DNA of 32,000 bases from Candidatus Nitrospira inopinata (GTDB taxonomy: Bacteria > Nitrospirota > Nitrospiria > Nitrospirales > Nitrospiraceae), in the NCBI RefSeq assembly GCF_001458695.1, contig NZ_LN885086.1, forward strand, positions 1,200,001 through 1,232,000, written 5' to 3'. The notes under the pieces are model-generated. The model ran no database searches, was not told the DNA's origin, and was given only the letters and a program-made list of their open reading frames with translations. Every line of letters begins with the position of its first letter. Within the stretch, counting starts at the first letter, position 1. The position numbers and the translations under genes are program-made. Below, piece after piece: positions 11,617-32,000 of the stretch.

Positions 11617-11671
11617 CGGCCACATATGAGAATGCGGAGGCATGTTATCTTTCTACAAGGAGGGATTCATT

Positions 11672-12481
11672 ATGGCGGCAGAGCGGGGCTATGACATTTC
11701 GCAGTGGTATGATTCGCGGCCGTGGAAGATTGGGTGGTTTGCGATGTTGGCGATTGGGATTTTTTGGGTATTGTATCAGCGGACGTTTGGGTATTCGCAC
11801 GGGTTGGACTCGATGACGCCGGAGTTTGACGCGGTGTGGATGGGGTTGTGGCGGTTTAACATTGTGGCCAATGCGTTATTTTTTGCGATTGCGGTGGGGT
11901 GGATTTGGGTGACGCGGGATCGGAATTTGGCGAATTTGGATCCGAAGACGGAGTTGAAGCGGTATTTTTACTGGATGGGGTGGTTGGCCTGCTATGTGTG
12001 GGGGGTCTATTATGCGGGCAGTTACACATTGGAGCAGGATGCGGCGTGGCATCAGGTGATCATTCGGGACACGAGTTTTACGGCGAGTCACATTGTGGCG
12101 TTTTACGGGACATTCCCGTTGTACATTACGTGCGGGGTGTCGAGTTATCTGTATGCGCAGACGCGGTTACCGTTGTATAGCCAGGCGACGTCGTTTCCGT
12201 TGGTGGCGGCGGTGGTGGGGCCGATGTTCATCTTACCGAACGTGGGGCTCAATGAGTGGGGCCATGCGTTTTGGTTTGTGGACGAGTTGTTTGCGGCGCC
12301 GTTGCATTGGGGCTTTGTGACGTTGGGCTGGTGCGGGTTGTTTGGGGCGGCGGGCGGCGTGGCGGCGCAGATTGTGAGCCGCATGTCGAACTTGGCGGAT
12401 GTGATTTGGAACGGGGCGCCCAAGAGCATCCTGGATCCGTTCCCCAGCCAGGTCAACCCCAACGCCAAAGCAGGATACTGA
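11672..12481 (+). CDS. amoC: ammonia/methane monooxygenase subunit C family protein, stand-alone copy
   Basis: AAGGAGGG SD then ATG 11672. Reads [46 protein letters not shown]...[14 protein letters not shown]...[29 protein letters not shown], which are hallmark AmoC/PmoC blocks including the metal-site D/H/H region. No amoA or amoB within the window. Confidence 0.92.
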
Positions 12482-15239: not shown

Positions 15240-15919
15240 TGGGCCGGCCGGTCCTGATCGCCCCTTCCATCTTGTCCGCCGATTTCGCCCGACTGGCCGA
15301 TGAAGCGGCCGCGGTCGAACGGGCGGGGGCGGATCTGCTGCACGTCGACGTCATGGACGGGCACTTCGTGCCGAATTTGACGGTGGGGCCGCCGATCGTG
15401 CAGGCGCTGAAGAAGGAAACAAAACTCCCGCTCGACGTCCATTTGATGATTACGAACGCCGATGCGTTCGTAGGCGAGTTCGCCAAGGCGGGGGCGGATT
15501 ATCTGACCGTGCACGTGGAAGCCTGCCCGCATCTGCATCGGACGATTCAATCCATCAAAGAGCACGGCGTCAAAGCCGGTGTGACGTTGAACCCGGCGAC
15601 GCCGATTCATTCGTTGGAGGAAATCCTGCCGGACGTCGATCTGGTGTTGATTATGTCCGTCAATCCCGGCTTCGGCGGGCAGACCTTCATCGCGTCCTGT
15701 TTGTCCAAGATACGGGCCGTGCGAGGGATGCTGGATCGGATCGGCAGCCGCGCCTTGTTGGAGGTGGACGGCGGCGTGAAAATTGACAACGCGGCTGAGA
15801 TACTGGAGGCCGGGGCGGACGTTCTGGTCGCCGGCTCGGCGGTTTTTTCCAGTCCCGATTACGCCGCGACCATTGCCGCGTTGCGCGCCGCCGGACGGTC
15901 GGTTTCCGTTCATCCATAG
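15239..15919 (+). CDS. rpe: ribulose-phosphate 3-epimerase
   Basis: Start trimmed to ATG 15239, which overlaps the rsmB stop (TGATG). IAPSILSADFARL, HVDVMDGHFVPNLT and MSVNPGFGGQ are canonical Rpe motifs. Confidence 0.95.
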   Translation: MGRPVLIAPSILSADFARLADEAAAVERAGADLLHVDVMDGHFVPNLTVGPPIVQALKKETKLPLDVHLMITNADAFVGEFAKAGADYLTVHVEACPHLHRTIQSIKEHGVKAGVTLNPATPIHSLEEILPDVDLVLIMSVNPGFGGQTFIASCLSKIRAVRGMLDRIGSRALLEVDGGVKIDNAAEILEAGADVLVAGSAVFSSPDYAATIAALRAAGRSVSVHP

Positions 15920-15926
15920 GCGTTCG

Positions 15927-17492
15927 GTGGATACGACGTCTTCCTGCGACAATCTCCATCCCCTCGAAATCGCGGTGCTTGGGGTCTTTGGGGCTCATCC
16001 CGCCGGGGCCGCGCTCACAACGGAGCAACTCGCCGAGGCGACCAAACTCGAATCATCTCAACTGAGCATGGCGATCGAGTGGCTGTTGGCGAAACAGCTC
16101 CTCGCGGTCACTTCTGAAACGGTCACGTCGGTCGTGTCGTTGACGGCGGTGGGAAAGACCTACGTTGAGCGGTCCTCGCCGCTGGATTGCGTCCTGTCCG
16201 CCGCGCGAGAGGCCTCGAGCACGGGGAAGCGGCTGACGATCGCCGATCTTCAGACGAAAGAGGAGCTTGAGCCGTCCGACGTCAGCAAGGCGGTGGGCCG
16301 TCTCAAAAAAGAGGGGGCGCTTCTGGTCGTGCAAGGCGGCTGTCTTGAGTCCACCGGCAGGCCAAGTCTTTCCGTCGAGGCGATGCGCGCGCTGCTCCGT
16401 GAGCTTGATGAAGGGCCTCGCCCGCTGGAAAGTTTCCCGGAGGTCCAGCGGGCGCTCATTCACGATTACGCGGTGAAGCGAGGAAGCGCCAGGGAACCGT
16501 TTCGAATCGAGGAGCGCGCGACGCGATCCTACACGTTGTCTCAGGCGGGCGCGGCGGCGGTCACCGCGCTTGCCGGTCAGGCCAAAGCGGAGGAAGTCGC
16601 GCAGCTCAGTCCCGACTTGCTCAAGGACGGCAGTTGGAGATCGAAGCGGTTCCGAAAGTACACCATCAGCCTGCGCCCGCCTCGGATCGCAGCCGGCAAG
16701 AAGCATCCGTATCGTGAGTTTCTGGACGCGGTCAAGCTCAAGTTGGTCAGCATGGGTTTTCAGGAGATGCGCGGCTCGCTCGTCGAGACCGAATTTTGGA
16801 ACATGGACGCGCTGTTTATGCCCCAATTCCACCCGGCCCGCGACATTCACGACGTCTATTTCGTCAAAGAACCGGCGCGCGCGTCGGCGGTTGCCGAGCC
16901 TTTTTTCTCGCGCGTGGCCGCGACGCATGAACACGGCGGGACGACCGGATCGACCGGCTGGGGGTATCGGTTCGATCCGGAGCGGGCGAAGCGGTTGGTG
17001 TTGCGGAGTCAAGGCACGGCGGTGTCGGCCAGGACCCTCGCCTTGTCGCCTTCGGTGCCAGGCAAATATTTTTCGATCGCGCGGTGCTTTCGCTACGATC
17101 AAGTGGATGCGACCCATGCGACGGATTTTTTTCAAGTCGAGGGAATCGTCTTGGGCGAGGACATCAACTTCCGCACGCTGTTGGGATTGCTGAATCTGTT
17201 CGCCCGGGAGGTCGCCCAGGCGAAAGAGGTGAAGTTCGTGCCCGCCTATTTTCCGTTTACGGAACCGTCGGTCGAACTCCACGTCCGTCATCCCCGGTTG
17301 GGCTGGATGGAGCTGGGCGGGGCCGGTCTGTTCAGACCCGAGGTCACTCAACCCCTTGGAGTAACGGTGCCGGTGATCGCCTGGGGGCTGGGGTTGGACC
17401 GTATGGCGATGGTGGCGCTCGGCGTTCACGATATCCGCGAGCTGTTCACCGATAACTTGGATCTGATCCGCACGACCAGAGGAGCGTTTTAG
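15927..17492 (+). CDS. pheS: phenylalanine--tRNA ligase alpha subunit, archaeal/eukaryal-type (long form)
   Basis: About 521 aa from GTG 15927, which is 8 nt after the rpe stop. Long N-terminal region where archaeal/eukaryal alpha subunits carry winged-helix-like repeats. FWNMDALFMPQFHPARD, PAYFPFTEPSVEL, GWMELGGAGLFRPEV and IAWGLGLDRMAM. The AWGLGLxR block and the length resemble archaeal/eukaryal rather than bacterial PheS (about 330-350 aa, GFAFGMGxER). Confidence 0.88.
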   Translation: MDTTSSCDNLHPLEIAVLGVFGAHPAGAALTTEQLAEATKLESSQLSMAIEWLLAKQLLAVTSETVTSVVSLTAVGKTYVERSSPLDCVLSAAREASSTGKRLTIADLQTKEELEPSDVSKAVGRLKKEGALLVVQGGCLESTGRPSLSVEAMRALLRELDEGPRPLESFPEVQRALIHDYAVKRGSAREPFRIEERATRSYTLSQAGAAAVTALAGQAKAEEVAQLSPDLLKDGSWRSKRFRKYTISLRPPRIAAGKKHPYREFLDAVKLKLVSMGFQEMRGSLVETEFWNMDALFMPQFHPARDIHDVYFVKEPARASAVAEPFFSRVAATHEHGGTTGSTGWGYRFDPERAKRLVLRSQGTAVSARTLALSPSVPGKYFSIARCFRYDQVDATHATDFFQVEGIVLGEDINFRTLLGLLNLFAREVAQAKEVKFVPAYFPFTEPSVELHVRHPRLGWMELGGAGLFRPEVTQPLGVTVPVIAWGLGLDRMAMVALGVHDIRELFTDNLDLIRTTRGAF

Positions 17493-17500
17493 GCGACGCC

Positions 17501-19216
17501 ATGCCCACGATCTCCATCTTCAAGAGCGATTTGGAATCGTTGCTCGGAGCTCCCGGTGAGCCGCGCACGGTCTCGATCGATGAGCTGCAGGAGCGGCTCA
17601 CCCTCGTGAAAGGCGAGGTGAAGGGGTATCAGGCGGACACCGGAGAGTTACGCGTTGAGTTGCAGGACAGCAATCGTCCGGATCTCTGGTGTTGCGAGGG
17701 GATCGCGCGACAAATCCGCGTCAAGCTCGGCGGGACGGCGAAGCCCTATCCTTTTTTATCCAAGCAGCCCGGGCGATTGCCGCAACTGCTCGTCGCCCCG
17801 GGGCTCGATCGTGTGCGCCCCTATGTCGCCGCGTGCGCCGCCACGGGTTATCGGGTCACGGAGCAGGGGTTGGCCCAGCTCATTCAGACGCAGGAGAAGC
17901 TGGCGGACATCTTCGGGCACAAGCGGAAGACGGTCTCGATCGGCATCTATCGGCTTCAGAAGATCCGCTTCCCCGTCACCTACGAGTTGGCGAGTCCGGA
18001 CGACGTGCGGTTCACCCCCTTGGGGATGGACACGGCGATGACCCTCTCGGAAATACTCATGGTCCATCCCAAGGGACTGGAGTACGGGTCCATCTTGGCG
18101 GGACAAAGCCGCCTGCCTCTGCTGCGGGACGCGGATCATCGGCCTCTGTCGTTTCCTCCGATCATCAACAGCCGGGAGATCGGAGAGGTGCTGGTCGGGG
18201 ATGACGAGTTGTTCGTCGAGGTGACGGGGACCGATGCCGCGATGGTCGTGTTGACGTTGAACATCTTTGCCGTCAACTTGGCGGATCGAGGGGCTGCGAT
18301 CCAGCCGATCGCGGTGCGCTACCCATATGAAACTCCGTTCGGCAAACGTGTGGTCACGCCGCGCGACATCGGACGCCCGCGAGGAATTCAAATCGAGACG
18401 ATTGAACGGGCCTTGGGTCAAGAACTCGGGGCGACGGTCGTCAAAGAGGCGCTCGAAGCCTACGGGTATCACGTCTCGACAGGAAAAAAATCGGTCACGG
18501 TCAAGTTGCCGCCCTATCGGCAGGATCTGATGCACGCCATGGACGTGGTCGAGGACGTGGCGATGAGCCTCGGCTACGGGGCGTTTTCACCGGAAATGCC
18601 GTCGCAATTTACCGTCGGGGGGCTGTCTCGAATTGAACAACTCTCGGATCGGGCGCGGGAGTTGATGGTCGGGCTCGGGTTTCAGGAGATTATTTCCAAT
18701 ATCCTCGGCTCTCCCGACCACTACCGTGACGCGATGCGGTTGGAGGGAACGGAGTGGGGGAAGATGGTGGAAGTCCGCAACGTGATGTCTTCAAGTTTCA
18801 GTTGCCTCCGCCAGTGGATGATTCCCTCGCTGCTGCGGGTCGAAGCGGCGTCGGCCCGATCGTTCTATCCCCACCGTCTGTTTGAAGCCGGCGAGGTGGC
18901 GATTTTTGATTCGGCGCACGACGTCGGTTCCCGCACGGAGACGGTGCTGGGGGCGATGATTGCCCACGCCGCGGCCCATTTTTCCGAGATCCACTCCTGC
19001 TTGGACGCTTGCCTCTATTACTTGGGCAAGACGTACGGTCTGGAGCCGATCCCGCATCCGTCGTTTCTCGACGGTCGCGTCGGAACGATCGTCGTCTCCG
19101 GAACGGCGATCGGTTTGATCGGCGAAATTCATCCGGAAGTTCTCGAACGTTGGCAAATCGCCATGCCGGTCGTCGCGTTCGAGGTGAATCTTTCCCGGCT
19201 TGAGCATCTGGTCTAA
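17501..19216 (+). CDS. pheT: phenylalanine--tRNA ligase beta subunit, archaeal/eukaryal-type (short form)
   Basis: 571 aa, against about 790-800 aa for bacterial PheT. The N-terminus MPTISIFKSDLESLLG...RVELQDSNRPDLWCCEGIARQIR matches the archaeal PheT pattern. It follows pheS after 8 nt. Confidence 0.88.
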   Translation: MPTISIFKSDLESLLGAPGEPRTVSIDELQERLTLVKGEVKGYQADTGELRVELQDSNRPDLWCCEGIARQIRVKLGGTAKPYPFLSKQPGRLPQLLVAPGLDRVRPYVAACAATGYRVTEQGLAQLIQTQEKLADIFGHKRKTVSIGIYRLQKIRFPVTYELASPDDVRFTPLGMDTAMTLSEILMVHPKGLEYGSILAGQSRLPLLRDADHRPLSFPPIINSREIGEVLVGDDELFVEVTGTDAAMVVLTLNIFAVNLADRGAAIQPIAVRYPYETPFGKRVVTPRDIGRPRGIQIETIERALGQELGATVVKEALEAYGYHVSTGKKSVTVKLPPYRQDLMHAMDVVEDVAMSLGYGAFSPEMPSQFTVGGLSRIEQLSDRARELMVGLGFQEIISNILGSPDHYRDAMRLEGTEWGKMVEVRNVMSSSFSCLRQWMIPSLLRVEAASARSFYPHRLFEAGEVAIFDSAHDVGSRTETVLGAMIAHAAAHFSEIHSCLDACLYYLGKTYGLEPIPHPSFLDGRVGTIVVSGTAIGLIGEIHPEVLERWQIAMPVVAFEVNLSRLEHLV

Positions 19217-25323: not shown

Positions 25324-25773
25324 ATGAAAGTATCCCGGCGGGCCCTGTACGGCATCATGGCTGCCATTGATCTTGCGATCCATGGGAAAGAAGTTCCAGT
25401 GCAAGCTCGATCGATTGCGAGACGCCAGGCGATCCCGATTAAATTTTTGGAGCAAGTCCTCCTCGCCCTGAAGAAAGGAGGATTGGTCCACAGTTTACGA
25501 GGGGCGCACGGTGGATACAGACTCGTTAAAGAACCATCCGCTTTGTCGGTCGCCGATATTCTCGAAGTGCTCGACGGCCCGGTTTTCCACTCTGGCGCCT
25601 CGAACGGCTTTCCCGCCAAAGGGCATCAGTCCAAGCAGGAGCTCCTTCTTGGCCATATCTGGAAGCAGGTCGCCCAGGCCGAGCACGATGTTCTTCAGCG
25701 GATCAGGATCGACCAGTTGGCCGAACGGCAACGGGCGATCGAGGGGCGATATACCCCCATGTATCACATTTAA
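25324..25773 (+). CDS. Rrf2-family transcriptional regulator lacking the Fe-S cysteines (CymR-like)
   Basis: MKVSRRALYGIMAAIDLA...ARSIARRQAIPIKFLEQVLLALKKGGLVHSLRGAHGGYRL is the Rrf2 winged HTH. The whole 149-aa protein contains no Cys, so it cannot bind a cluster the way IscR or NsrR do. It lies directly upstream of the sulfate-assimilation genes. Confidence 0.85.
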   Translation: MKVSRRALYGIMAAIDLAIHGKEVPVQARSIARRQAIPIKFLEQVLLALKKGGLVHSLRGAHGGYRLVKEPSALSVADILEVLDGPVFHSGASNGFPAKGHQSKQELLLGHIWKQVAQAEHDVLQRIRIDQLAERQRAIEGRYTPMYHI

Positions 25774-25847
25774 CCGCGAGAGTGCGTATCAGGTTTCCGG
25801 AGAGGATGGATGCGTCGGTCTCATTGTCGCCAAGAGGAGATGCCCCA

Positions 25848-28352
25848 ATGACTCCCCAACAACTGAAAACGGTCGAGGTCGTGACGACTCCCATTCCGCC
25901 CGCCATTGCCGAAGAAATTGAAACGTTCGAGGCCGAGGCCCTTCGGTGTCTGGCCGGCGACCTTTCTTCGGATCTTTTTAAGCCGTTCCGCCTCCAGTTC
26001 GGCATTTATGGGCAGCGGCAATCCGGGGTCCAGATGGTGCGGGTCAAAATCCCCTTTGGAGGCATTTCGGCCAATCAGCTTCGCCGCCTCGCCGAGTTGG
26101 TCGATCGGTATGCCACCGGCGTCGGTCACGTGACGACGCGGCAGGATATCCAGATGCATTTCGTCGAGCTCAAAGACGTGCCGACGATCATGCGCGGGCT
26201 GGCGGAAGTCGGCCTGACGACCAGAGAGGCCTGTTCCAATACGGTCCGGAACGTGACCGCCTGCCACTTGGCCGGCGTCTGTCGGAGCGAGGTGTTTGAC
26301 GTGACGCCGTATGCCAAAACAGTGGCGTATCATCTCCTTCGCAATCCGCTCAACCAGAGCTTGCCCCGCAAGTTCAAGATCGCCTTTTCCGGATGCGCGC
26401 ACGATTGCGCCGTGACTCCCATTCACGACATCGGGCTCATGGCCGTCAAACGGGAGGACGGGGCCGTCGGTTTTCGGATGGTGGCCGGCGGAGGGTTGGG
26501 GCCGCTGCCTCGGATGGCCAAGGTGCTGCGAGAGTTTACGCCGATGGACGAACTGATCCCCAGCATCGAAGCGGTGATCAAAGTCTTCGATGCCTTGGGG
26601 AATCGAAAAAACCGCCACAAGGCCCGCATGAAGTTCGTCATCGACAAGTTGGGGTTTGAAGAATTCAAGCGACGGTGGGAAGCGGCGTATGCGGCCTTGG
26701 GGTACAACCTGCCTGCGGATCGGCCGATCCGACTGCTCCATCATGACGATCGACCGGTTCCACTGATCATGCCGACCAGGAGCGGATCGGCTTCCAATGG
26801 CACGCCCGCCAACGGACATCGCGAGGACGATCATGAAACGTCCTTTCAGACGTGGAAGCGGACCAACGTGATTCCGCAGAAGCAGGAAGGCTACGTCACG
26901 GTCGTGATCAAACTCTTCATGGGAGACATCACGGCGGACCAAATGCGGTGGGTGGCGGATCTTGCCGAGCGGTATTCCAACGGCAATCTCCGAACGACGA
27001 TTCATCAAAACCTCGTGATCCGATGGATTCCTGAAGACCGGATCGAAGCCTTGTATCAGGACCTGGCGCTTCAGGGGCTGGCCGATCCGGGAGCCGAGCA
27101 CGTTGAAGACATCATCGCCTGCCCCGGCACCGATACATGCGGCCTGGGCATCACCTCGTCCAAAGGGATGGCTCGGGGGCTGGCCGAGATTTTCCCGGCC
27201 GGACGAGTGCCGGACGATCTGGCCGGAGTCACCGTCAAGATCAGCGGTTGCCATAATTCCTGCGCCCAGCACCACATCGCGACGATCGGACTGCACGGCG
27301 TCGGCAAACGGATCGGAGACCATACGCTGCCCATGTATGAACTGCATCTCGGGGGCAAGGTGAACGGCACAGCCAAGATCGGGCAGATGACCGTCAAACT
27401 GCCCGCCAAGGCGGTTCCGGCGGCCGTTACGCATTTGATCGACGTGTATCGGAGGGACCGCAAACCGGGCGAAACGATGCCGGCGTTCATCGACCGCGTC
27501 GGGAAAAACGACCTGAAGGACGAACTCATTCCCTATACCATCGTTCCCTCTTACGAGGAGGACTCTACGTTTTATTACGACTGGGAAGGGGATGACCCCT
27601 TTGTGCTCGAAGACCATGGCCCCGGCGAGTGCGCCGGAGGCGCCCTCGAAATGATCGAAAACGGAATTTTGGAAGCCGATCAAGAGCTCTATTTGGCAAG
27701 GCTCCACGTCGAAAAGCACCAGTACGCGGTGGCGGTGAACAAAGCGTATCGAGCCGTGTTGGCCGCCGCGAAAGCTCTGTTGGTGACGGAAGGGCTCGAT
27801 CCCTCGACCGACTCCGAAACGCTCGGTGAATTCGACGCCCGCATCGCCCAGAAGGGCGTCGTCCCCGCGCAGTATCGAGACCTTGGCGGGCAGGTCGGCG
27901 ATCTGGGAAGCAAAGAGAGCGGCGAACCATTCGCCAGGGAAAAAATCGCGTTTGCGAAGGGCTTTGTGGATGCCTGCCGGGCCGCGACGGAGCGCATGGG
28001 CAAAGATCTCAAGTTGGCGCCGACCGCCGAGACCGCGACGGCGACTTCAACGGCCGAGCCGCAACGGAAACCGGAACCCAAGTCGGAACTTGTCTCTCCC
28101 CCTTCGGCTCCGGCCGACGTTCCCGTGTACGACCTGCGGGGCGTGGCTTGTCCGATGAACTACGTCAAAACCAAGCTGAAGCTCGAAATGATGGAGGCGG
28201 GCGAGCGGCTCGAAGTTTGGTTGGATGCCGGTGAGCCGATCAAGAACGTGCCGATGAGCCTCAAGAATGATGGGCATAAGGTGCTGTGGGAAGAGGCGCT
28301 GGAGCCGGAAGCGACGCACTATCGGCTGTTGGTCGAGAAGGTCGGGGACTAG
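25848..28352 (+). CDS. sir: siroheme/[4Fe-4S] sulfite (nitrite/sulfite family) reductase fused to a helical domain and a C-terminal TusA/SirA-like domain
   Basis: Start at ATG 25848 (AGGAG SD 10 nt upstream). Two nitrite/sulfite-reductase repeats, each with Cx5C...Cx3C: TACHLAGVC...SGCAHDC at 26262-26408 and ACPGTDTC...SGCHNSC at 27120-27263. An Ala/Leu/Glu-rich, probably helical region of about 130 aa follows (about 27620-28020), then a Pro/Thr/Ala linker. The C-terminus VYDLRGVACPMNYVKTKLKLEMMEAGERLEVWLDAGEPIKNVPMSLKNDGHKVL is a TusA-like fold with its Cys codon at 28149-28151. Sulfite rather than nitrite as substrate is inferred from the cysH/cysDN context. Confidence 0.85.
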   Translation: MTPQQLKTVEVVTTPIPPAIAEEIETFEAEALRCLAGDLSSDLFKPFRLQFGIYGQRQSGVQMVRVKIPFGGISANQLRRLAELVDRYATGVGHVTTRQDIQMHFVELKDVPTIMRGLAEVGLTTREACSNTVRNVTACHLAGVCRSEVFDVTPYAKTVAYHLLRNPLNQSLPRKFKIAFSGCAHDCAVTPIHDIGLMAVKREDGAVGFRMVAGGGLGPLPRMAKVLREFTPMDELIPSIEAVIKVFDALGNRKNRHKARMKFVIDKLGFEEFKRRWEAAYAALGYNLPADRPIRLLHHDDRPVPLIMPTRSGSASNGTPANGHREDDHETSFQTWKRTNVIPQKQEGYVTVVIKLFMGDITADQMRWVADLAERYSNGNLRTTIHQNLVIRWIPEDRIEALYQDLALQGLADPGAEHVEDIIACPGTDTCGLGITSSKGMARGLAEIFPAGRVPDDLAGVTVKISGCHNSCAQHHIATIGLHGVGKRIGDHTLPMYELHLGGKVNGTAKIGQMTVKLPAKAVPAAVTHLIDVYRRDRKPGETMPAFIDRVGKNDLKDELIPYTIVPSYEEDSTFYYDWEGDDPFVLEDHGPGECAGGALEMIENGILEADQELYLARLHVEKHQYAVAVNKAYRAVLAAAKALLVTEGLDPSTDSETLGEFDARIAQKGVVPAQYRDLGGQVGDLGSKESGEPFAREKIAFAKGFVDACRAATERMGKDLKLAPTAETATATSTAEPQRKPEPKSELVSPPSAPADVPVYDLRGVACPMNYVKTKLKLEMMEAGERLEVWLDAGEPIKNVPMSLKNDGHKVLWEEALEPEATHYRLLVEKVGD

Positions 28353-28374: not shown

Positions 28375-29091
28375 ATGACGGACAGCCAAAATTCGGACAT
28401 CGCCGGCCGCCTTCGTTCGTGGGGCGAGTCGTTTGAAGCAAAACCGCCGCAAGAGGTGCTGGCGGCCGCCATCGAGCGGTATGCGCCAAACATCGTCCTC
28501 GCCTGTAGTTTCGGCGCGGAAGACGTGGTGTTGGTGGACATGATCCATCGGATCAATGCCTCCGTGCCGCTGTTCTATTTGGATACGGAGTTTCTCTTTC
28601 CGGAAACGTATGCGACGAGAGATCGCGTCATCGAGCGATACGGACTGGCGCCGGCACAGGTGATCCAGGTCAAATCCTTGCTGACGCCGGAACAACAAGC
28701 GCGGCAATACGGCGAGGCGCTGTGGTCCAAAGATCCGGACCTCTGCTGCCGATTGCGGAAAGTCGAGCCGCTCGCCGGAATGCTCAAAAAATTCGATGCG
28801 TGGATTACCGGTATTCGCCGTGAGCAGGCTCTCTCCAGAGCCGACGCCGGTCTCATCGAGTGGGATGCCAAGTTCGGCCTGGTCAAAGTCAATCCGCTGG
28901 CGCGGTGGACCTGGGCCGACGTGTGGACCTACATCAAGGTCTATGAAGTGCCGTACAACCCCCTCCATGACAGGAACTACCCGAGTATCGGTTGCACCCA
29001 TTGCACCAAGCCGGTGAGTCCGGGAGAGGACTTGCGCGCCGGTCGCTGGCAAGGCCACGCGAAAACCGAGTGCGGCTTGCATCGGTCGTGA
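28375..29091 (+). CDS. cysH: adenylylsulfate (APS) reductase, thioredoxin-dependent, Fe-S type CysH
   Basis: ACSFGAEDVVLVDM, TGIRREQ, and a C-terminal ECGLH. It also has the CC (DLCCRLRK) and CxxC (GCTHCTK) pairs that mark [4Fe-4S] APS reductases rather than PAPS reductases. Start at ATG 28375, with an in-frame TTG at 28369 also possible. Confidence 0.9.
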   Translation: MTDSQNSDIAGRLRSWGESFEAKPPQEVLAAAIERYAPNIVLACSFGAEDVVLVDMIHRINASVPLFYLDTEFLFPETYATRDRVIERYGLAPAQVIQVKSLLTPEQQARQYGEALWSKDPDLCCRLRKVEPLAGMLKKFDAWITGIRREQALSRADAGLIEWDAKFGLVKVNPLARWTWADVWTYIKVYEVPYNPLHDRNYPSIGCTHCTKPVSPGEDLRAGRWQGHAKTECGLHRS

Positions 29092-29092
29092 C

Positions 29093-30133
29093 ATGACGTT
29101 TCAGGACATCCTCGCCAAAATCGCCAAGGGTCCCAAGACGTCCAAGGATTTGACGTGGGATGAAACCAAGCGGGCGATGAGAGCCCTCATCGAAGGCGAA
29201 GCGACTCCGGCCCAAACGGGAGCCTTCTTGATCGCCATGCGATTTAAGTCGGAATCGGTCGCGGAATTGGCGGGCATGACGGCCGCCGTGAGACATTATG
29301 TGCCTCCTCTCGCGGTTCCGAAAGAAATCGCCCTCGTCGATGTGCCGACCTATGCGGGCAAACAGGACACCTTCCATGCGCTGGTGGCCGCCTCCATTGT
29401 CGCCGCTTCCGCCGGGGCTACGGTGCTGATGCACGGCTACGACGGGATTCCCGGAAGGCCTGGCAGCGCCGGGGTGCTGAAGGCGATGGGTATCCCGATC
29501 GATTCCACCCCGCGCGCCGTGACCGAGGATCTGCTCAAGAAGGGGTTCGCATATCTGGATATCGGCATCTATCATCCGGCGGTCTATCGATTTCTGGAGA
29601 TGCGACAGGAGCTGGGCGTGAGGAACGTCTTTCATCCGATCGCCAGATTGCTCAACCCGGCTCGCGCTTCCGCGCAGGTGGTCGGACTGTCGCATCCCCC
29701 GCATTTCGAGAAAACGGCCGAAGCGTTGCGCATGCTCGGTTGCCCGAGGGGGTTCGTCATTCGCGGGGTCGAGGGCGATCCGGAACTCTCCCTGTCGGCG
29801 GTGACCAGGGTGTTGGAACTGAGGGATGAGCGTATCACGCCTTTGGGAGTGGCTCCCAAGGATTTCGGGCTGGCGCTCGGTTCTTCGCGGGAGATGGCGG
29901 GCTTTCCGCCGGATCAACGGGACAGGGAAGCGGAGCTGCTCCACCGTATTCTTCAGCATCAGGTGCAGGGGGGACCCAAGGAATGGGTTCTGATGAACGC
30001 GGCGATGTTGCTGTACGCGGCGGGAAAGGGGCAATCGCTCTCGGCCTGCTACCCCCGGGCCAAGGCGGCGCTTGAAGGGGGAGCGGCGGCTCGGAAATTA
30101 GAAGAGTTGACCCGGGAAACGGTGGGGGCTTAG
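29093..30133 (+). CDS. anthranilate phosphoribosyltransferase (TrpD)/glycosyltransferase family 3-like protein with degenerate active-site motifs
   Basis: 346 aa, collinear with TrpD over the full length ([36 protein letters not shown]..., [44 protein letters not shown]). The PRPP-binding GTGGD is replaced by PTYAGKQD (about 29347-29370), and KHGNR...SKSGSADVLEALG is replaced by [21 protein letters not shown]. The ATG begins 1 nt after the cysH stop. Confidence 0.8.
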
Positions 30134-30155: not shown

Positions 30156-30986
30156 TTGAGTTCGGATGAGACGAAAGGACGTAAAACGGTGAAACATCTG
30201 CATTGGTTGGAAGACCAAAGCGTGTACATCCTTCGGGAGGCCTACAAGCACTTTGACAACCTGGCCATGCTGTGGTCGATCGGGAAGGATTCGACCGTTC
30301 TATTGTGGTTGGTCCGCAAGGCGTTTTTCGGCCATGTTCCGTTCCCGCTGATCCACATCGACACCAGCTACAAGATTCCCGCCATGATCGAGTACCGAGA
30401 CCGATTGGCCCGCGAGTGGCGGTTGAATTTGGTCGTGGGCCAGAACAAGGAGGCGCTGGCGGCCGGGATGAATCACACGATGGGACGCGACGTCTGTTGC
30501 ACGGCGCTCAAGACGATGGCGTTAAAAAATCTGATCGAGTCGAAAGGGTACACCGGCATCATTTTGGGCGTGCGCGCCGATGAAGACAGCACCAGGGCCA
30601 AAGAGCGATACTTCTCGCCCCGCGACAAACACGGAGACTGGGATTTCCGCGATCAGCCGCCGGAACTGTGGAACCAGTTCAAAACGACGTTCCCGCCGGG
30701 GACCCATATCCGAATCCACCCTCTGCTTGATTGGACGGAAGTCAACATCTGGGAATACATCAAGGCCGAGAATATCCCCTTTATCGATCTGTACTTGGAC
30801 AAGGGGGACGGCACACGCTACCGGAGTCTGGGGTGCGCTCCCTGCACGACGCCCGTAAAGTCCACCGCCAAGACGGTGGATGAGATCATCGAAGAGCTGC
30901 GGGCGACGAATATCGCGGAACGGGCCGGACGAGCCCAGGACGCGGGACGCGGCATGGAGATGCTCCGGAAGAAAGGGTACATGTAA
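30156..30986 (+). CDS. cysD: sulfate adenylyltransferase subunit 2
   Basis: [34 protein letters not shown] (PP-loop), [27 protein letters not shown]. Start is either TTG 30156 or GTG 30189 (VKHLHWLE), unresolved. Confidence 0.92.
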
Positions 30987-32000
30987 TGGACGAGGCGACG
31001 GCAGCGGCGGCGCGAGCCGCTTCGAAACCGGACGAACATTTCAACATCGTCATTGTCGGTCACGTGGACCACGGAAAGTCCACGCTCGTGGGACGGCTCT
31101 ATGCGGATACCGGGTCGTTGCCGGAGGGCAAATTGGAGAAGGTGCAGGCGATCTGCCGCCAGCAGGGGAAAGAATTCGAGTACGCGTTCCTGTTCGATGC
31201 GTTCTTGGAGGAGCAGGAGCAGGGCATCACGATCGATACGGCGCGGACGTTTTTTATTTGGAAGGGACGGCAGTACATCATCATCGACGCGCCGGGCCAC
31301 AAGGAATTCCTTAAAAACATGATCTCCGGCGCGGCCAGGGCCGAGGCGGCGCTCCTCGTGATCGACGCCCTCGAGGGGGTCAAAGAGCAGTCCAAAAAAC
31401 ACGGGTATTTGCTGTCTCTGCTCGGGGTTCGCCAGTTCGCGGTCGTCGTCAACAAGATGGACCTGGTCGGCTATCGGCAGGACGTCTTCGACGGCATTGA
31501 GAAAGAGTATCGGGAGTTTCTCGGGCAGTTCGGCGCGATCCCCGAACGGATTATTCCCGTGAGCGCCAAGCTCGGCGACAACATTGCCGACCGCAGCCGG
31601 GCCATGCCGTGGTACGGGGGACCGACCGTCCTGGACACCCTCAGCCTCTTTAAAAAAGAAACGGCCTCGGCCGATCAGCCTCTGCGATTTCCCGTTCAGG
31701 ACGTGTACAAGTTTGATGCGCGTCGCATCATCGCGGGCCGCATCACGGCCGGCCGTCTGAAAGTCGGCGACCAACTGATCTTCTCTCCTTCGAACAAGCG
31801 GGCCAACGTCAAATCGATCGAAGCGTTCAACGTCGAGCCCCTTCCGATGAGCGCCGAGGCGGGCCAATCCATCGGCGTGACCCTCGATGAGCAGATCTTC
31901 GTGGAGCGGGGGGAAATCGCCGCCCATCCAAGCGGCCTGCCCCACGTCTCAACGTCGTTCAAGGCCAACCTGTTTTGGCTGGGCAAGCGACCGCTGGAGC
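30986..32000 (+). CDS. cysN: sulfate adenylyltransferase subunit 1 (GTPase), 5' part only, runs off the right window edge
   Basis: Absent from the ORF track because it is open-ended. ATG 30986 overlaps the cysD stop (TAATG). Hand translation gives [38 protein letters not shown]...ITIDTAR...[11 protein letters not shown]...VVVNKMDLV..., that is G1/G3/G4 motifs of the EF-Tu-like CysN family. Whether a CysC kinase domain is fused at the C-terminus cannot be seen. Confidence 0.9.

What the first reader, a model, noticed from the sequence alone, without database searches (positions are those of the whole stretch)
29093..30133. TrpD-fold protein with an ablated PRPP-binding motif, translationally coupled between cysH and cysD
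The 346-aa product aligns end to end, by eye, with anthranilate phosphoribosyltransferase. The shared features are the N-terminal helical bundle with EATPAQxxAFLxAxRxK, the YHPA...RxELGVRxxFxxxxxLxNP core, and the C-terminal VLxNAAxxLYxAG.

The catalytic signatures are gone. GTGGD is replaced by TYAGKQD, and KHGN...SGSAD by MHGY...PGSAG.

Its ATG starts 1 nt after the cysH stop, and cysD follows 22 nt later, so it is almost certainly co-expressed with sulfate activation and reduction rather than with tryptophan synthesis. No trp genes are nearby.

The fold family (nucleoside phosphorylase II / glycosyltransferase family 3) binds phosphate-type oxyanions and ribosyl or nucleoside substrates. 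Speculative roles include sulfate/APS/AMP binding or recycling, a scaffold between CysDN and APS reductase, or a regulatory sensor. This is my top candidate for an undescribed function in the window.
Basis: partly seen in the sequence, partly recalled or inferred. Interest (0 to 1): 0.7.

Follow-up and report, generated by a model that had tools for sequence, protein, structure and literature searches.

The report
TrpD-like accessory gene of sulfate assimilation
A gene that databases label as a tryptophan-pathway enzyme has lost that enzyme's substrate-binding site and is instead a conserved, still uncharacterised part of the sulfate-assimilation operon of Nitrospira, a major group of nitrifying bacteria.

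Summary
ORF 29093-30133 (+, 346 aa) has a full-length TrpD fold (Pfam E 7.5e-39 and 1.7e-19; AF2 pLDDT 96; TM 0.88 to TrpD 4hkm). Its PRPP/Mg2+ signatures are gone: GTGGD is TYAG-K, N-x-S-T is H-x-L-V, KHGN is MHGY and D-E is P-E.

The replacement residues are invariant in 139 unique orthologues. Selection is purifying (dN/dS about 0.07-0.12).

The start lies 1 nt after the cysH stop. In 147 related loci the order Sir/TusA-CysH-X-CysD-CysN(C) or a close variant holds in 143.

Relatives at 38-40% identity sit next to different sulfate enzymes: Sat, AprAB and a small sulfite reductase. Nitrospira marina has a canonical trpD in its trp operon as well, and its X protein was detected by proteomics.

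X shares YbiB/TrpD2 hallmarks: a P-[ST]-Y-x-G loop, an N-terminal G-K-G...K-D-L loop and the Arg123 equivalent. It meets no curated family cut-off except TIGR01245, which it barely passes (210 vs 199 bits). That explains the widespread "anthranilate phosphoribosyltransferase" label.

I found no paper describing it. The function is unproven. My best guess is an anion- or partner-binding accessory factor acting with the sulfate adenylyltransferase.

The parts
25324..25773 (+). Rrf2-family (CymR/IscR-like) regulator, the first gene of the cluster
   Evidence: Pfam Rrf2, E 2.3e-28. NCBIfam rrf2_super above its cut-off, and CymR E 1e-26. It is found upstream of Sir-TusA wherever the flank is long enough. 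It also heads the Sat/AprAB-type cluster in L178.
25782..28352 (+). NirA-type sulfite reductase fused through a long linker to a C-terminal TusA domain
   Evidence: Pfam NIR_SIR x2, NIR_SIR_ferr x2 and TusA (E 5.4e-17), plus a weak HEPN hit in the linker. The fusion is conserved in related loci.
28375..29091 (+). cysH, a PAPS_reduct-family (APS/PAPS) reductase carrying the CC...CxxC cysteines
   Evidence: NF002537, 268.9 bits against a cut-off of 154. TIGR02055 APS_reductase, 232.6 against 235.3. The stop is TGA at 29089-29091.
29093..30133 (+). X: a TrpD-fold, GTGGD-less (TrpD2-like) protein of 346 aa. This is the finding.
   Evidence: Key residues: N-terminal loop K9-G13-K15-K18-D19-L20-T21; P85-T-Y87-A-G-K90; T93-F-H95; M113-H114-G115-Y116-D117; P120-G-R122; R171; H181; R185; H201-P-P-H204-F-E-K207; G225-V-E-G-D-P230-E231-L-S.
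30156..30986 (+). cysD, the small subunit of sulfate adenylyltransferase
   Evidence: NF003587, 362.4 bits against a cut-off of 195. It lies immediately downstream of X in 133 of 147 related loci.
30986..32000 (+). cysN, the GTPase subunit, cut off by the end of the window. In orthologous loci it is a CysNC-like fusion with an APS-kinase-like C-terminal domain.
   Evidence: Pfam GTP_EFTU, E 2.2e-45. The ATG overlaps the cysD TAA. Full-length orthologues in L001 and L098 carry PF01583 APS_kinase.

Best explanation
X is not an anthranilate phosphoribosyltransferase. It is a full-length protein of the TrpD/PRT-III fold. [quoted passage not shown] In the phylum Nitrospirota it has become a fixed, translationally coupled gene of the assimilatory sulfate-reduction operon.

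Shown:
- the fold;
- loss of the pyrophosphate/Mg2+ ligands and of the PRPP loop;
- invariance of the replacement residues under purifying selection;
- recurrent linkage to sulfate genes, even when the partner enzymes are non-orthologous;
- a separate canonical trpD, and detection of the X protein, in N. marina.

Inferred mechanism (about 0.3 for this specific version): X no longer carries out PRPP chemistry. The old pyrophosphate pocket has become hydrophobic (L97, V98, M113). The old 5-phosphate pocket has gained cationic and H-bonding side chains (K90, R122, H95, with H114 and R171 retained). This pocket would bind an oxyanion or an adenylyl-sulfate/nucleotide-type ligand, or an acidic segment of a partner protein, much as YbiB's groove binds polyanions.

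Through this binding, X would act as an accessory subunit at the sulfate-activation/APS step, alongside the sulfate adenylyltransferase. That is the only gene class adjacent to X in every cys-linked arrangement: CysD, CysNC, Sat, or an NMNAT-like adenylyltransferase. A plausible effect is holding or handing over APS, which would relieve product inhibition of an energetically uphill reaction.
For: Fold:
- Pfam, NCBIfam and PDB sequence hits.
- AF2 with a 126-sequence alignment gave pLDDT 96.1 and pTM 0.93.
- Foldseek's top 50 hits are all TrpD, the best with TM 0.88.

Motif loss and conservation:
- Alignments.
- In 139 unique orthologues, Y87, K90, H95, H114, R122, R171, R177, H201, E206, K207, E227, P230 and E231 are invariant, and none has GTGG.
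- dN/dS is 0.066-0.070 for the two closest pairs (dS about 0.2), with a median of 0.12.

Weak fit to TrpD:
- X scores 210.4 bits on TIGR01245 (cut-off 199). A genuine TrpD scores 412.8.

TrpD2-like features:
- The P-[ST]-Y-x-G loop and the G-[KR]-G...[KR]-D-L N-terminal loop are shared with E. coli YbiB.
- R122 aligns with YbiB R123, which is needed for binding the acidic ObgE tail.
- GTGGD-less sequences separate from canonical TrpD in 68% of NJ bootstraps.

Linkage:
- 80 of 80 Nitrospira species genomes have Rrf2-SirTusA-CysH-X-CysD.
- 63 of 67 metagenomic loci are cys-linked, in three arrangements.
- The gap from the CysH stop to the X start is -1 to 2 nt in 110 of 139 loci.
- Distant relatives: SirTusA-X-Sat with overlapping genes; small SIR-AprA-AprB-Sat-X; Rrf2-SirTusA-CysH-NMNAT-like-X.
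- As a control, canonical TrpDs picked up in the same scan all lie in TrpE-TrpG-TrpD-TrpC operons.

N. marina:
- trpD_1 lies next to cysD and was detected at 5-6 spectral counts. A canonical trpD_2 sits in the trp operon.
Against: - No ligand, partner or activity has been measured, so the mechanism rests on residue changes and gene order only.
- I had no model coordinates, so pocket geometry was inferred from alignment to TrpD ligand lists.
- K90 and R122 are not universal. Marine Nitrospirales have P-x-Y-G-E-K and no Arg at the R122 position, which weakens the 'cationic pocket' argument.
- All named family members are Nitrospirota. Part of the linkage could therefore be inherited gene order rather than independent evidence.
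- Some class-A relatives are not cys-linked:
  - VKOR/DUF309;
  - PdxA-KsgA-AsmA, and a Crp-like neighbour;
  - trpS;
  - a trp operon.
- Deep branching is poorly supported, with class-A monophyly at 26%.
- By profile score, X is nearer to an uncharacterised 'PYDGK' family (612) and to TrpD (478) than to YbiB (342).
Confidence: 0.6

Rival explanations
1. TrpD2-type regulator. Like YbiB, X would bind nucleic acid (or another polyanion) in its cleft. It would control transcription or translation of the cys operon, possibly together with the Rrf2 regulator that heads the operon and in response to a sulfur metabolite.
For: - Loop motifs and the R123 equivalent are shared with YbiB.
- The protein is basic, with pI 8.95.
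- An Rrf2 gene heads both the CysDN-type and the Sat/AprAB-type clusters.
- Abundance in N. marina is low relative to CysD, about 5 against 27 spectral counts, as expected of a regulator.
Against: - X scores only 144 bits on the YbiB model (cut-off 185), aligned over residues 1-231 only.
- Profile identity to YbiB is 22%.
- Its position is in the middle of the enzyme genes, tightly coupled to CysH and CysD and not next to Rrf2.
- YbiB's own physiological role is unknown (PMC10123104).
Confidence: 0.2
2. New enzyme. X would retain ribosyl-transfer or phosphorolysis chemistry of the TrpD/nucleoside-phosphorylase-II fold, but on an adenine nucleotide of the pathway. An example is an AMP- or APS-cleaving or recycling activity that removes a product of APS reductase.
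For: - The fold family includes AMP phosphorylase and thymidine phosphorylase.
- X keeps R171 (the Arg that binds the base or aryl acid), H114-G115 and E231.
- It has many invariant polar residues (Y87, H95, H181, R185, H201, E206, K207).
- AMP is the co-product of APS reduction (established pathway knowledge).
Against: - The phosphate/pyrophosphate site used by both TrpD and nucleoside phosphorylases is largely replaced by hydrophobic residues: S119 to L/I, T120 to V/I and K135 to M. One Mg2+ ligand is lost (D251 to P).
- X gave no match to the AMP-phosphorylase model at E <= 0.01.
Confidence: 0.12
3. The database annotation is right. X is a divergent but working anthranilate phosphoribosyltransferase, or a second isozyme.
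For: X passes the TIGR01245 cut-off (210.4 against 199.05). It is named anthranilate phosphoribosyltransferase in NCBI and IMG records. R193 and E252 equivalents are retained.
Against: - GTGGD, S119, T120, K135, N138 and D251 equivalents are all replaced, and the replacements are invariant.
- A real TrpD scores about 413 bits on the same model.
- There are no trp genes nearby.
- N. marina has a canonical trpD in its trp operon.
Confidence: 0.03
4. Functionless passenger. X would be a decaying duplicate that merely rides in a well-expressed operon.
For: The catalytic motif is lost. 'Genomic hitchhiking' has been raised as a possibility for ybiB (PMC10123104).
Against: - Full length is retained in 144 of 147 loci, with no stops.
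- dN/dS is about 0.07-0.12.
- Dozens of positions are invariant, including the replaced ones.
- The gene is kept next to sulfate genes through several rearrangements and partner replacements.
- The protein was detected in N. marina.
Confidence: 0.03

Closest known systems
Anthranilate phosphoribosyltransferase TrpD (PRT type III; Pfam PF02885 + PF00591; TIGR01245)
   Same: - Same two-domain fold over the whole length (TM 0.88, about 30% identity to 4hkm).
- Conserved helical-bundle motif (ATPAQ..AFL.A.R.K.E).
- Conserved R-x-E-L-G-V-R...L-N-P core.
- R193 and E252 equivalents retained, and the C-terminal NAA..LY.AG motif is present.
   Different: - The GTGGD loop is replaced and one residue shorter.
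- Pyrophosphate/Mg2+ ligands are replaced: S119, T120, K135 and D251.
- N138 is replaced by Tyr.
- X reaches half the TIGR01245 score of a real TrpD.
- It sits in a sulfate operon instead of a trp operon, and a canonical trpD co-exists in N. marina.
TrpD2 family / E. coli YbiB (nonspecific DNA-binding protein; NF006005)
   Same: - TrpD fold without the PRPP motif.
- Shared P-[ST]-Y-x-G loop in place of GTGGD.
- Shared N-terminal G-[KR]-G-x-x-x-x-[KR]-D-L loop.
- The H-G of KHGN is kept.
- R122 aligns with YbiB R123.
   Different: - 22% profile identity.
- NF006005 score of 144 is below the 185 cut-off and covers only residues 1-231.
- YbiB is shorter (320 aa) and sits in a LexA-controlled dinG-ybiB operon.
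- Nucleic-acid binding by X has not been tested.
Uncharacterised 'PYDGK' TrpD-like family (nearest NCBIfam model NF005635/PRK07394, 'hypothetical protein')
   Same: It is the closest profile to the X family (hhalign score 612, 36% identity). It also lacks GTGGD and KHGN, and it has the same N-terminal loop.
   Different: The loop sequence differs (P-Y-D-G-[KR], with a 1-2 residue insertion after H-G...P-P-K). No sulfate linkage was seen in the single context I could retrieve. Its function is also unknown.
Nucleoside phosphorylase II (thymidine phosphorylase, AMP phosphorylase)
   Same: Same superfamily fold. AMP phosphorylase acts on a nucleotide that is a product of APS reduction.
   Different: X lacks the extra C-terminal domain and the T-G-G phosphate loop. 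It gave no match to these models at E <= 0.01.

Membership tests
TrpD (anthranilate phosphoribosyltransferase) | Two-domain PRT-III fold (helical bundle plus alpha/beta domain) | tested here: met
   Pfam PF02885 and PF00591. AF2 pLDDT 96.1. Foldseek TM 0.88 to 4hkm.
TrpD (anthranilate phosphoribosyltransferase) | GTGGD PRPP-binding loop | tested here: not met
   The loop is replaced by P-T-Y-A-G-K and is one residue shorter. None of 139 orthologues has GTGG.
TrpD (anthranilate phosphoribosyltransferase) | Pyrophosphate/Mg2+ ligands (Mtb N117, S119, T120, K135, D251, E252) | tested here: not met
   The equivalents are H95, L97, V98, M113, P230 and E231. Only the Glu is kept.
TrpD (anthranilate phosphoribosyltransferase) | Anthranilate ligands (Mtb N138, R193) | tested here: inconclusive
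   R193 is kept as R171, which is invariant. N138 is replaced by Y116.
TrpD (anthranilate phosphoribosyltransferase) | Score above the curated TIGR01245 cut-off | tested here: met
   210.4 bits against 199.05, so only marginally met. A genuine TrpD scores 412.8, and distant X-family members fall below the cut-off at 155-176.
TrpD (anthranilate phosphoribosyltransferase) | Genomic association with trpE/G/C/F/B, or being the genome's only trpD | tested here: not met
   No trp genes in the window. 143 of 147 loci are cys-linked. N. marina has a separate canonical trpD_2 in its trp operon. The window's own genome could not be searched.
TrpD (anthranilate phosphoribosyltransferase) | Catalysis of anthranilate + PRPP to PRA + PPi | not testable with these tools
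   This needs an enzyme assay or trpD complementation.
TrpD2 / YbiB | TrpD fold lacking the PRPP motif | tested here: met
   The definition comes from PMC9835598 and PMC10123104.
TrpD2 / YbiB | Conserved groove arginines (YbiB R92, R123) | tested here: inconclusive
   R122 aligns exactly with R123. K90 lies one to two columns from R92. Both are invariant in the Nitrospira clade but absent in marine Nitrospirales relatives.
TrpD2 / YbiB | Score above the curated NF006005 (YbiB) or NF006564 cut-off | tested here: not met
   144.0 against 185, and 164.6 against 257.
TrpD2 / YbiB | dinG-ybiB / LexA operon context | tested here: not met
   The context here is cys genes. The E. coli context is shown.
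TrpD2 / YbiB | High-affinity, sequence-independent nucleic-acid binding | not testable with these tools
   This needs EMSA or anisotropy with purified protein.
Assimilatory sulfate-reduction operon component (operational definition) | Conserved co-directional adjacency to sulfate activation and reduction genes across lineages | tested here: met
   In N. marina the gene is next to cysD.

The most novel reading that the evidence does not exclude
X would be a previously unrecognised component of assimilatory sulfate reduction. It would be a TrpD-fold protein re-tooled to bind adenylyl sulfate, or another pathway anion, and it would physically couple the sulfate adenylyltransferase (CysDN or Sat) to APS reductase and sulfite reductase. 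That would be an APS-channelling or product-release subunit with no counterpart in the textbook E. coli, Bacillus or plant pathways.
Probability: 0.2. Interest if true: 0.75.

Novelty: new variant of a known kind. Interest (0 to 1): 0.58.

Why it matters
- **Ecological reach.** Nitrospira carries out nitrite oxidation and complete ammonia oxidation in soils, waters and treatment plants. Every genome sampled keeps this extra gene inside its sulfate-assimilation operon, so the pathway in these organisms has a conserved component that textbook schemes lack.
- **Annotation.** The gene is systematically annotated as anthranilate phosphoribosyltransferase because it just clears the TIGR01245 threshold. 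Metabolic reconstructions therefore count a trpD that is not one, and they miss an unknown sulfur-pathway factor.
- **Evolution of the fold.** It gives the poorly understood TrpD2-like branch of the fold a second, well-defined physiological context, with clear candidate ligands and partners. That makes the function of these proteins experimentally approachable.

Tried and rejected
- **First AF2 run.** A 15-sequence Nitrospira-only alignment gave pLDDT 56 and was discarded. A 126-sequence alignment gave pLDDT 96. That alignment is dominated by canonical TrpDs, so the model may lean towards TrpD.
- **Metagenome scan.** It was repeated with 6 sequences.
- **Phylogeny.** A Biopython bootstrap timed out. 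It was re-implemented with numpy. Deep nodes stayed weak, so I do not claim that X is sister to YbiB.
- **Persulfide carrier idea.** I considered X as a partner of TusA and rejected it. C319 is not conserved (104 of 139 orthologues) and no Cys is conserved across the family.
- **AMP + PPi to adenine + PRPP.** I considered this as a way to remove both by-products and rejected it as unlikely, because the pyrophosphate site is ablated.
- **RNA and signal scans.** Rfam found only two tRNAs and no riboswitch or leader. The promoter/terminator scan showed nothing above shuffle expectation inside the operon.
- **Literature.** Four searches combining the TrpD-like gene or the Sir-TusA fusion with sulfate-assimilation terms found nothing describing it. 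The original YbiB/TrpD2 paper (PMC4528117) is not held. The supplements of the comammox guanidine paper had no relevant entries.
- **Class B context.** This stayed essentially unknown, because only short contigs were available.
Full report
**1. What is in the sequence**

ORF 29093-30133 (+) encodes 346 aa. cysH ends with TGA at 29089-29091, and one base separates it from the ATG of X.

X ends with TAG at 30131-30133. The cysD ORF begins at TTG 30156, 22 nt downstream. An in-frame GTG at 30189 is the only alternative start. The cysD TAA overlaps the cysN ATG at 30986.

Upstream lie an Rrf2 regulator (25324-25773) and a NirA-type sulfite reductase fused to a C-terminal TusA domain (25782-28352), followed by cysH (28375-29091).

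The rest of the window holds arg genes, fmt/rsmB, pheST, rmuC, infC, thrS and a stand-alone amoC. It has no trp genes. GC and GC3 of X match those of its neighbours.

**2. Fold and family signal**

- Pfam finds Glycos_trans_3N (E 1.7e-19) and Glycos_transf_3 (E 7.5e-39).
- The best solved relatives are all TrpDs; 4hkm gives E 8e-45 over residues 18-336. YbiB comes much lower, at E 1e-18 over residues 1-230 only.
- With a deep alignment, AF2 gives pLDDT 96.1 and pTM 0.93.
- All 50 top Foldseek hits are TrpD structures, the best with TM 0.88.
- The AF2 alignment was dominated by canonical TrpDs, which may bias the model towards them.

**3. The active site is remodelled, not merely degraded**

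I used the ligand list for M. tuberculosis TrpD from PMC9835598 and the alignments.

| Mtb TrpD | X |
|---|---|
| GTGGD 107-111 | T86-Y87-A88-G89 plus a one-residue deletion |
| N117 | H95 |
| S119 | L97 |
| T120 | V98 |
| K135-H-G-N138-R139 | M113-H114-G115-Y116-D117 |
| S142/S143 | P120/G121 |
| G147 | S125 |
| R193 | R171 (kept) |
| D251-E252 | P230-E231 (Glu kept) |

The pyrophosphate/Mg2+ site has therefore lost most of its ligands and become more hydrophobic. The loops that hold the 5-phosphate of PRPP have acquired K90 and R122.

In 139 unique orthologues (52-98% identity) recovered from 147 loci, these positions are invariant: Y87, K90, H95, H114, R122, R171, R177, H201, E206, K207, E227, P230 and E231. 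No sequence contains GTGG.

dN/dS against the window gene is 0.066-0.070 for the two closest pairs, and the median is 0.12. The gene is under strong purifying selection.

**4. Place in the superfamily**

An exhaustive search of 1.84 billion representatives gave 8,906 relatives. At the GTGGD loop, the 134 sequences aligned from the best hits fall into three classes:

- **Class A:** P-x-Y-A-G-[KR]. This class holds X and its distant relatives. E. coli YbiB, with P-S-Y-N-G-A-R-K, aligns here.
- **Class B:** P-Y-D-G-[KR], with a small insertion.
- **Class C:** canonical TrpD.

Classes A and B and YbiB also share an N-terminal G-[KR]-G-x-x-x-x-[KR]-D-L-T loop that TrpD lacks. X R122 aligns with YbiB R123, a residue needed to bind the acidic tail of ObgE.

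NJ trees separate GTGGD-less sequences from canonical TrpD in 68% of bootstraps. Finer relationships are unresolved, with class-A monophyly at 26%.

By profile comparison, the X family scores 612 against class B, 478 against TrpD and 342 against YbiB.

X is below the curated cut-offs of the YbiB, PRK09071 and PRK07394 models. It just clears TIGR01245, at 210.4 against 199.05. A real TrpD scores 412.8. This marginal pass explains why NCBI and IMG call these proteins anthranilate phosphoribosyltransferase.

**5. Gene neighbourhood**

*Close relatives.* A scan of one genome per GTDB species found 216 relatives. The best 80 are all Nitrospira or Nitrospiraceae, and all 80 have Rrf2-SirTusA-CysH-X-CysD.

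A metagenome scan returned 67 X-family loci at 52-84% identity. It also returned 13 canonical TrpDs. The 9 whose flanks matched my gene panel sit beside trpG and/or trpC, 5 of them with trpE, which makes a useful negative control.

Over all 147 loci, 143 carry cys genes next to X. Three arrangements occur:

- SirTusA-CysH-X-CysD-CysN, the commonest. The complete five-gene order is seen in 111 loci.
- SirTusA-CysH-CysD-CysNC-X.
- CysH-DsrE-like-X-CysD.

The gap from the CysH stop to the X start is -1 to 2 nt in 110 of 139 cases.

*Distant relatives keep the association with different enzymes.*

| Relative | Identity to X | Context |
|---|---|---|
| P0135 (Nitrospirota) | 40% | SirTusA-X-Sat, genes overlapping |
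| P0133/P0296 (Nitrospirota) | 38% | Rrf2-small sulfite reductase-AprA-ferredoxin-Sat-X, with a divergent DASS anion symporter |
| P0127 (marine Nitrospirales) | 39% | Rrf2-SirTusA-CysH-NMNAT-like adenylyltransferase-X |

In every cys-linked arrangement, the gene next to X is a known or putative sulfate adenylyltransferase. In L178 a toxin-antitoxin insertion separates the two.

*Relatives that are not cys-linked.*

| Relative or locus | Context |
|---|---|
| P0126 | VKOR/DsbA-DUF309 |
| L097, L120 | Crp-like neighbour; PdxA-KsgA-AsmA |
| P0132/P0330 | overlapping trpS |
| P0143 | inside an archaeal trp operon beside a canonical TrpD |

*Taxonomic range.* Every named member of the cys-linked clades is from Nitrospirota. 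The family looks like a phylum-level innovation, and part of the conservation of gene order is inheritance.

**6. Independent evidence from the literature**

In the N. marina proteome supplement (PMC8115632):

- trpD_1 ('putative anthranilate phosphoribosyltransferase', 362 aa) lies between cysD and a small 'peroxiredoxin family' gene. The equivalent gene in my loci is DsrE-like.
- It was detected at 5-6 spectral counts under oxic conditions and 0-1 under low O2.
- trpD_2 lies within trpE-trpD-trpC-trpF.

A canonical trpD therefore co-exists with X, and X is expressed as protein.

I found no paper that discusses a TrpD-like gene in sulfate assimilation.

**7. Interpretation**

*Shown:* X has a TrpD fold without PRPP chemistry. 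It is conserved, expressed, and genetically tied to sulfate activation and reduction.

*Inferred:* X is an accessory, probably non-catalytic, binding protein. The constant adjacency to the adenylyltransferase points to the sulfate-activation/APS step. That reaction is thermodynamically uphill and strongly product-inhibited (established biochemistry), so a protein that binds APS or bridges to the reductase would be useful.

The remodelled 5-phosphate pocket (K90, R122, H95, H114, R171) is a plausible anion or phosphosulfate site. However, K90 and R122 are not kept in the marine clade, and I had no coordinates with which to examine the pocket.

*Rivals:*
- A YbiB-like nucleic-acid or polyanion-binding regulator, perhaps working with Rrf2.
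- A new nucleotide-cleaving enzyme.
- A genuine TrpD or a functionless passenger, both of which are very unlikely.

**8. Verdict**

The protein is best described as a new, sulfate-operon-specific variant of the GTGGD-less (TrpD2-like) branch of the TrpD superfamily. It is mis-annotated as TrpD and its function is unknown.

Interest is moderate to high. It is a conserved unknown in a core pathway of an ecologically important phylum, with clear experiments available. It is phylum-restricted, and its mechanism is still only inferred.

Noticed in passing
window 11642-12481 (+): A stand-alone AmoC gene (PF04896, 352 bits) lies far from any amoA or amoB in the window. This suggests the window comes from a comammox Nitrospira with an orphan amoC copy.
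   Followed up: partly
window 25782-28352 (+): The sulfite reductase is fused through a linker of about 200 aa (weak HEPN hit, E 4e-5) to a C-terminal TusA sulfur-carrier domain. The fusion is conserved across Nitrospirota loci. Its role in an assimilatory pathway is unexplained.
   Followed up: partly
L001 7627-9747; L098 4155-5984 (orthologues of the window cysN, 30986 to the window end): CysN carries a C-terminal APS-kinase-like domain (PF01583) with an unusual P-loop, GGRHxGKS instead of GLSGSGKS. It may be a regulatory or degenerate kinase domain sitting beside an APS-type CysH.
   Followed up: partly
L124 5567-5989 (also N. marina IMG gene 2597406591): In some lineages a 140-aa DsrE-like gene (PF02635) is inserted between cysH and X. 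Together with the TusA domain, this hints at a sulfur-relay element in an assimilatory operon.
   Followed up: partly
L093 6001-7020: In a Euryarchaeota MAG, a GTGGD-less TrpD paralogue (motif D-Y-A-G-R) sits inside a trp operon. It lies between trpG and a canonical trpD that scores 412.8 bits on TIGR01245.
   Followed up: partly
L179 1527-2582 and L094 1155-2207: Another class-A subfamily (P0132/P0330) lies next to tryptophanyl-tRNA synthetase (TIGR00233, 261-267 bits). In L179 the two genes overlap by 22 nt. In L094 a CbiX gene lies between them. These TrpD-like proteins may keep a link to tryptophan.
   Followed up: partly
L086 5457-5984: In marine Nitrospirales, a 175-aa NMNAT-like nucleotidyltransferase (PF01467, E 1.2e-6) lies between cysH and X, and no CysDN or Sat is found within 13 kb. 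It could be an unrecognised small sulfate adenylyltransferase, or it could be unrelated.
   Followed up: no
L178 5156-8699: Several toxin-antitoxin-type genes (PIN, RHH, HepT/MNT, AF2212-like) are inserted between Sat and X, in an otherwise conserved Rrf2-SIR-AprAB-Sat-X cluster.
   Followed up: no
window 15783-17492 and 17501-19216 (+): PheS is long (up to 569 aa from the first start codon) and has winged-helix hits in its N-terminal part. PheT is short (571 aa). These proportions look like the archaeal/eukaryotic type of phenylalanyl-tRNA synthetase, not the usual bacterial one.
   Followed up: no
window 29093-30133 and public records (P0001-P0120): X clears the TIGR01245 cut-off by only 11 bits, so orthologues are widely named 'anthranilate phosphoribosyltransferase' in NCBI and IMG. 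This is a systematic annotation error. It could be fixed with a dedicated family model or an exception rule.
   Followed up: yes
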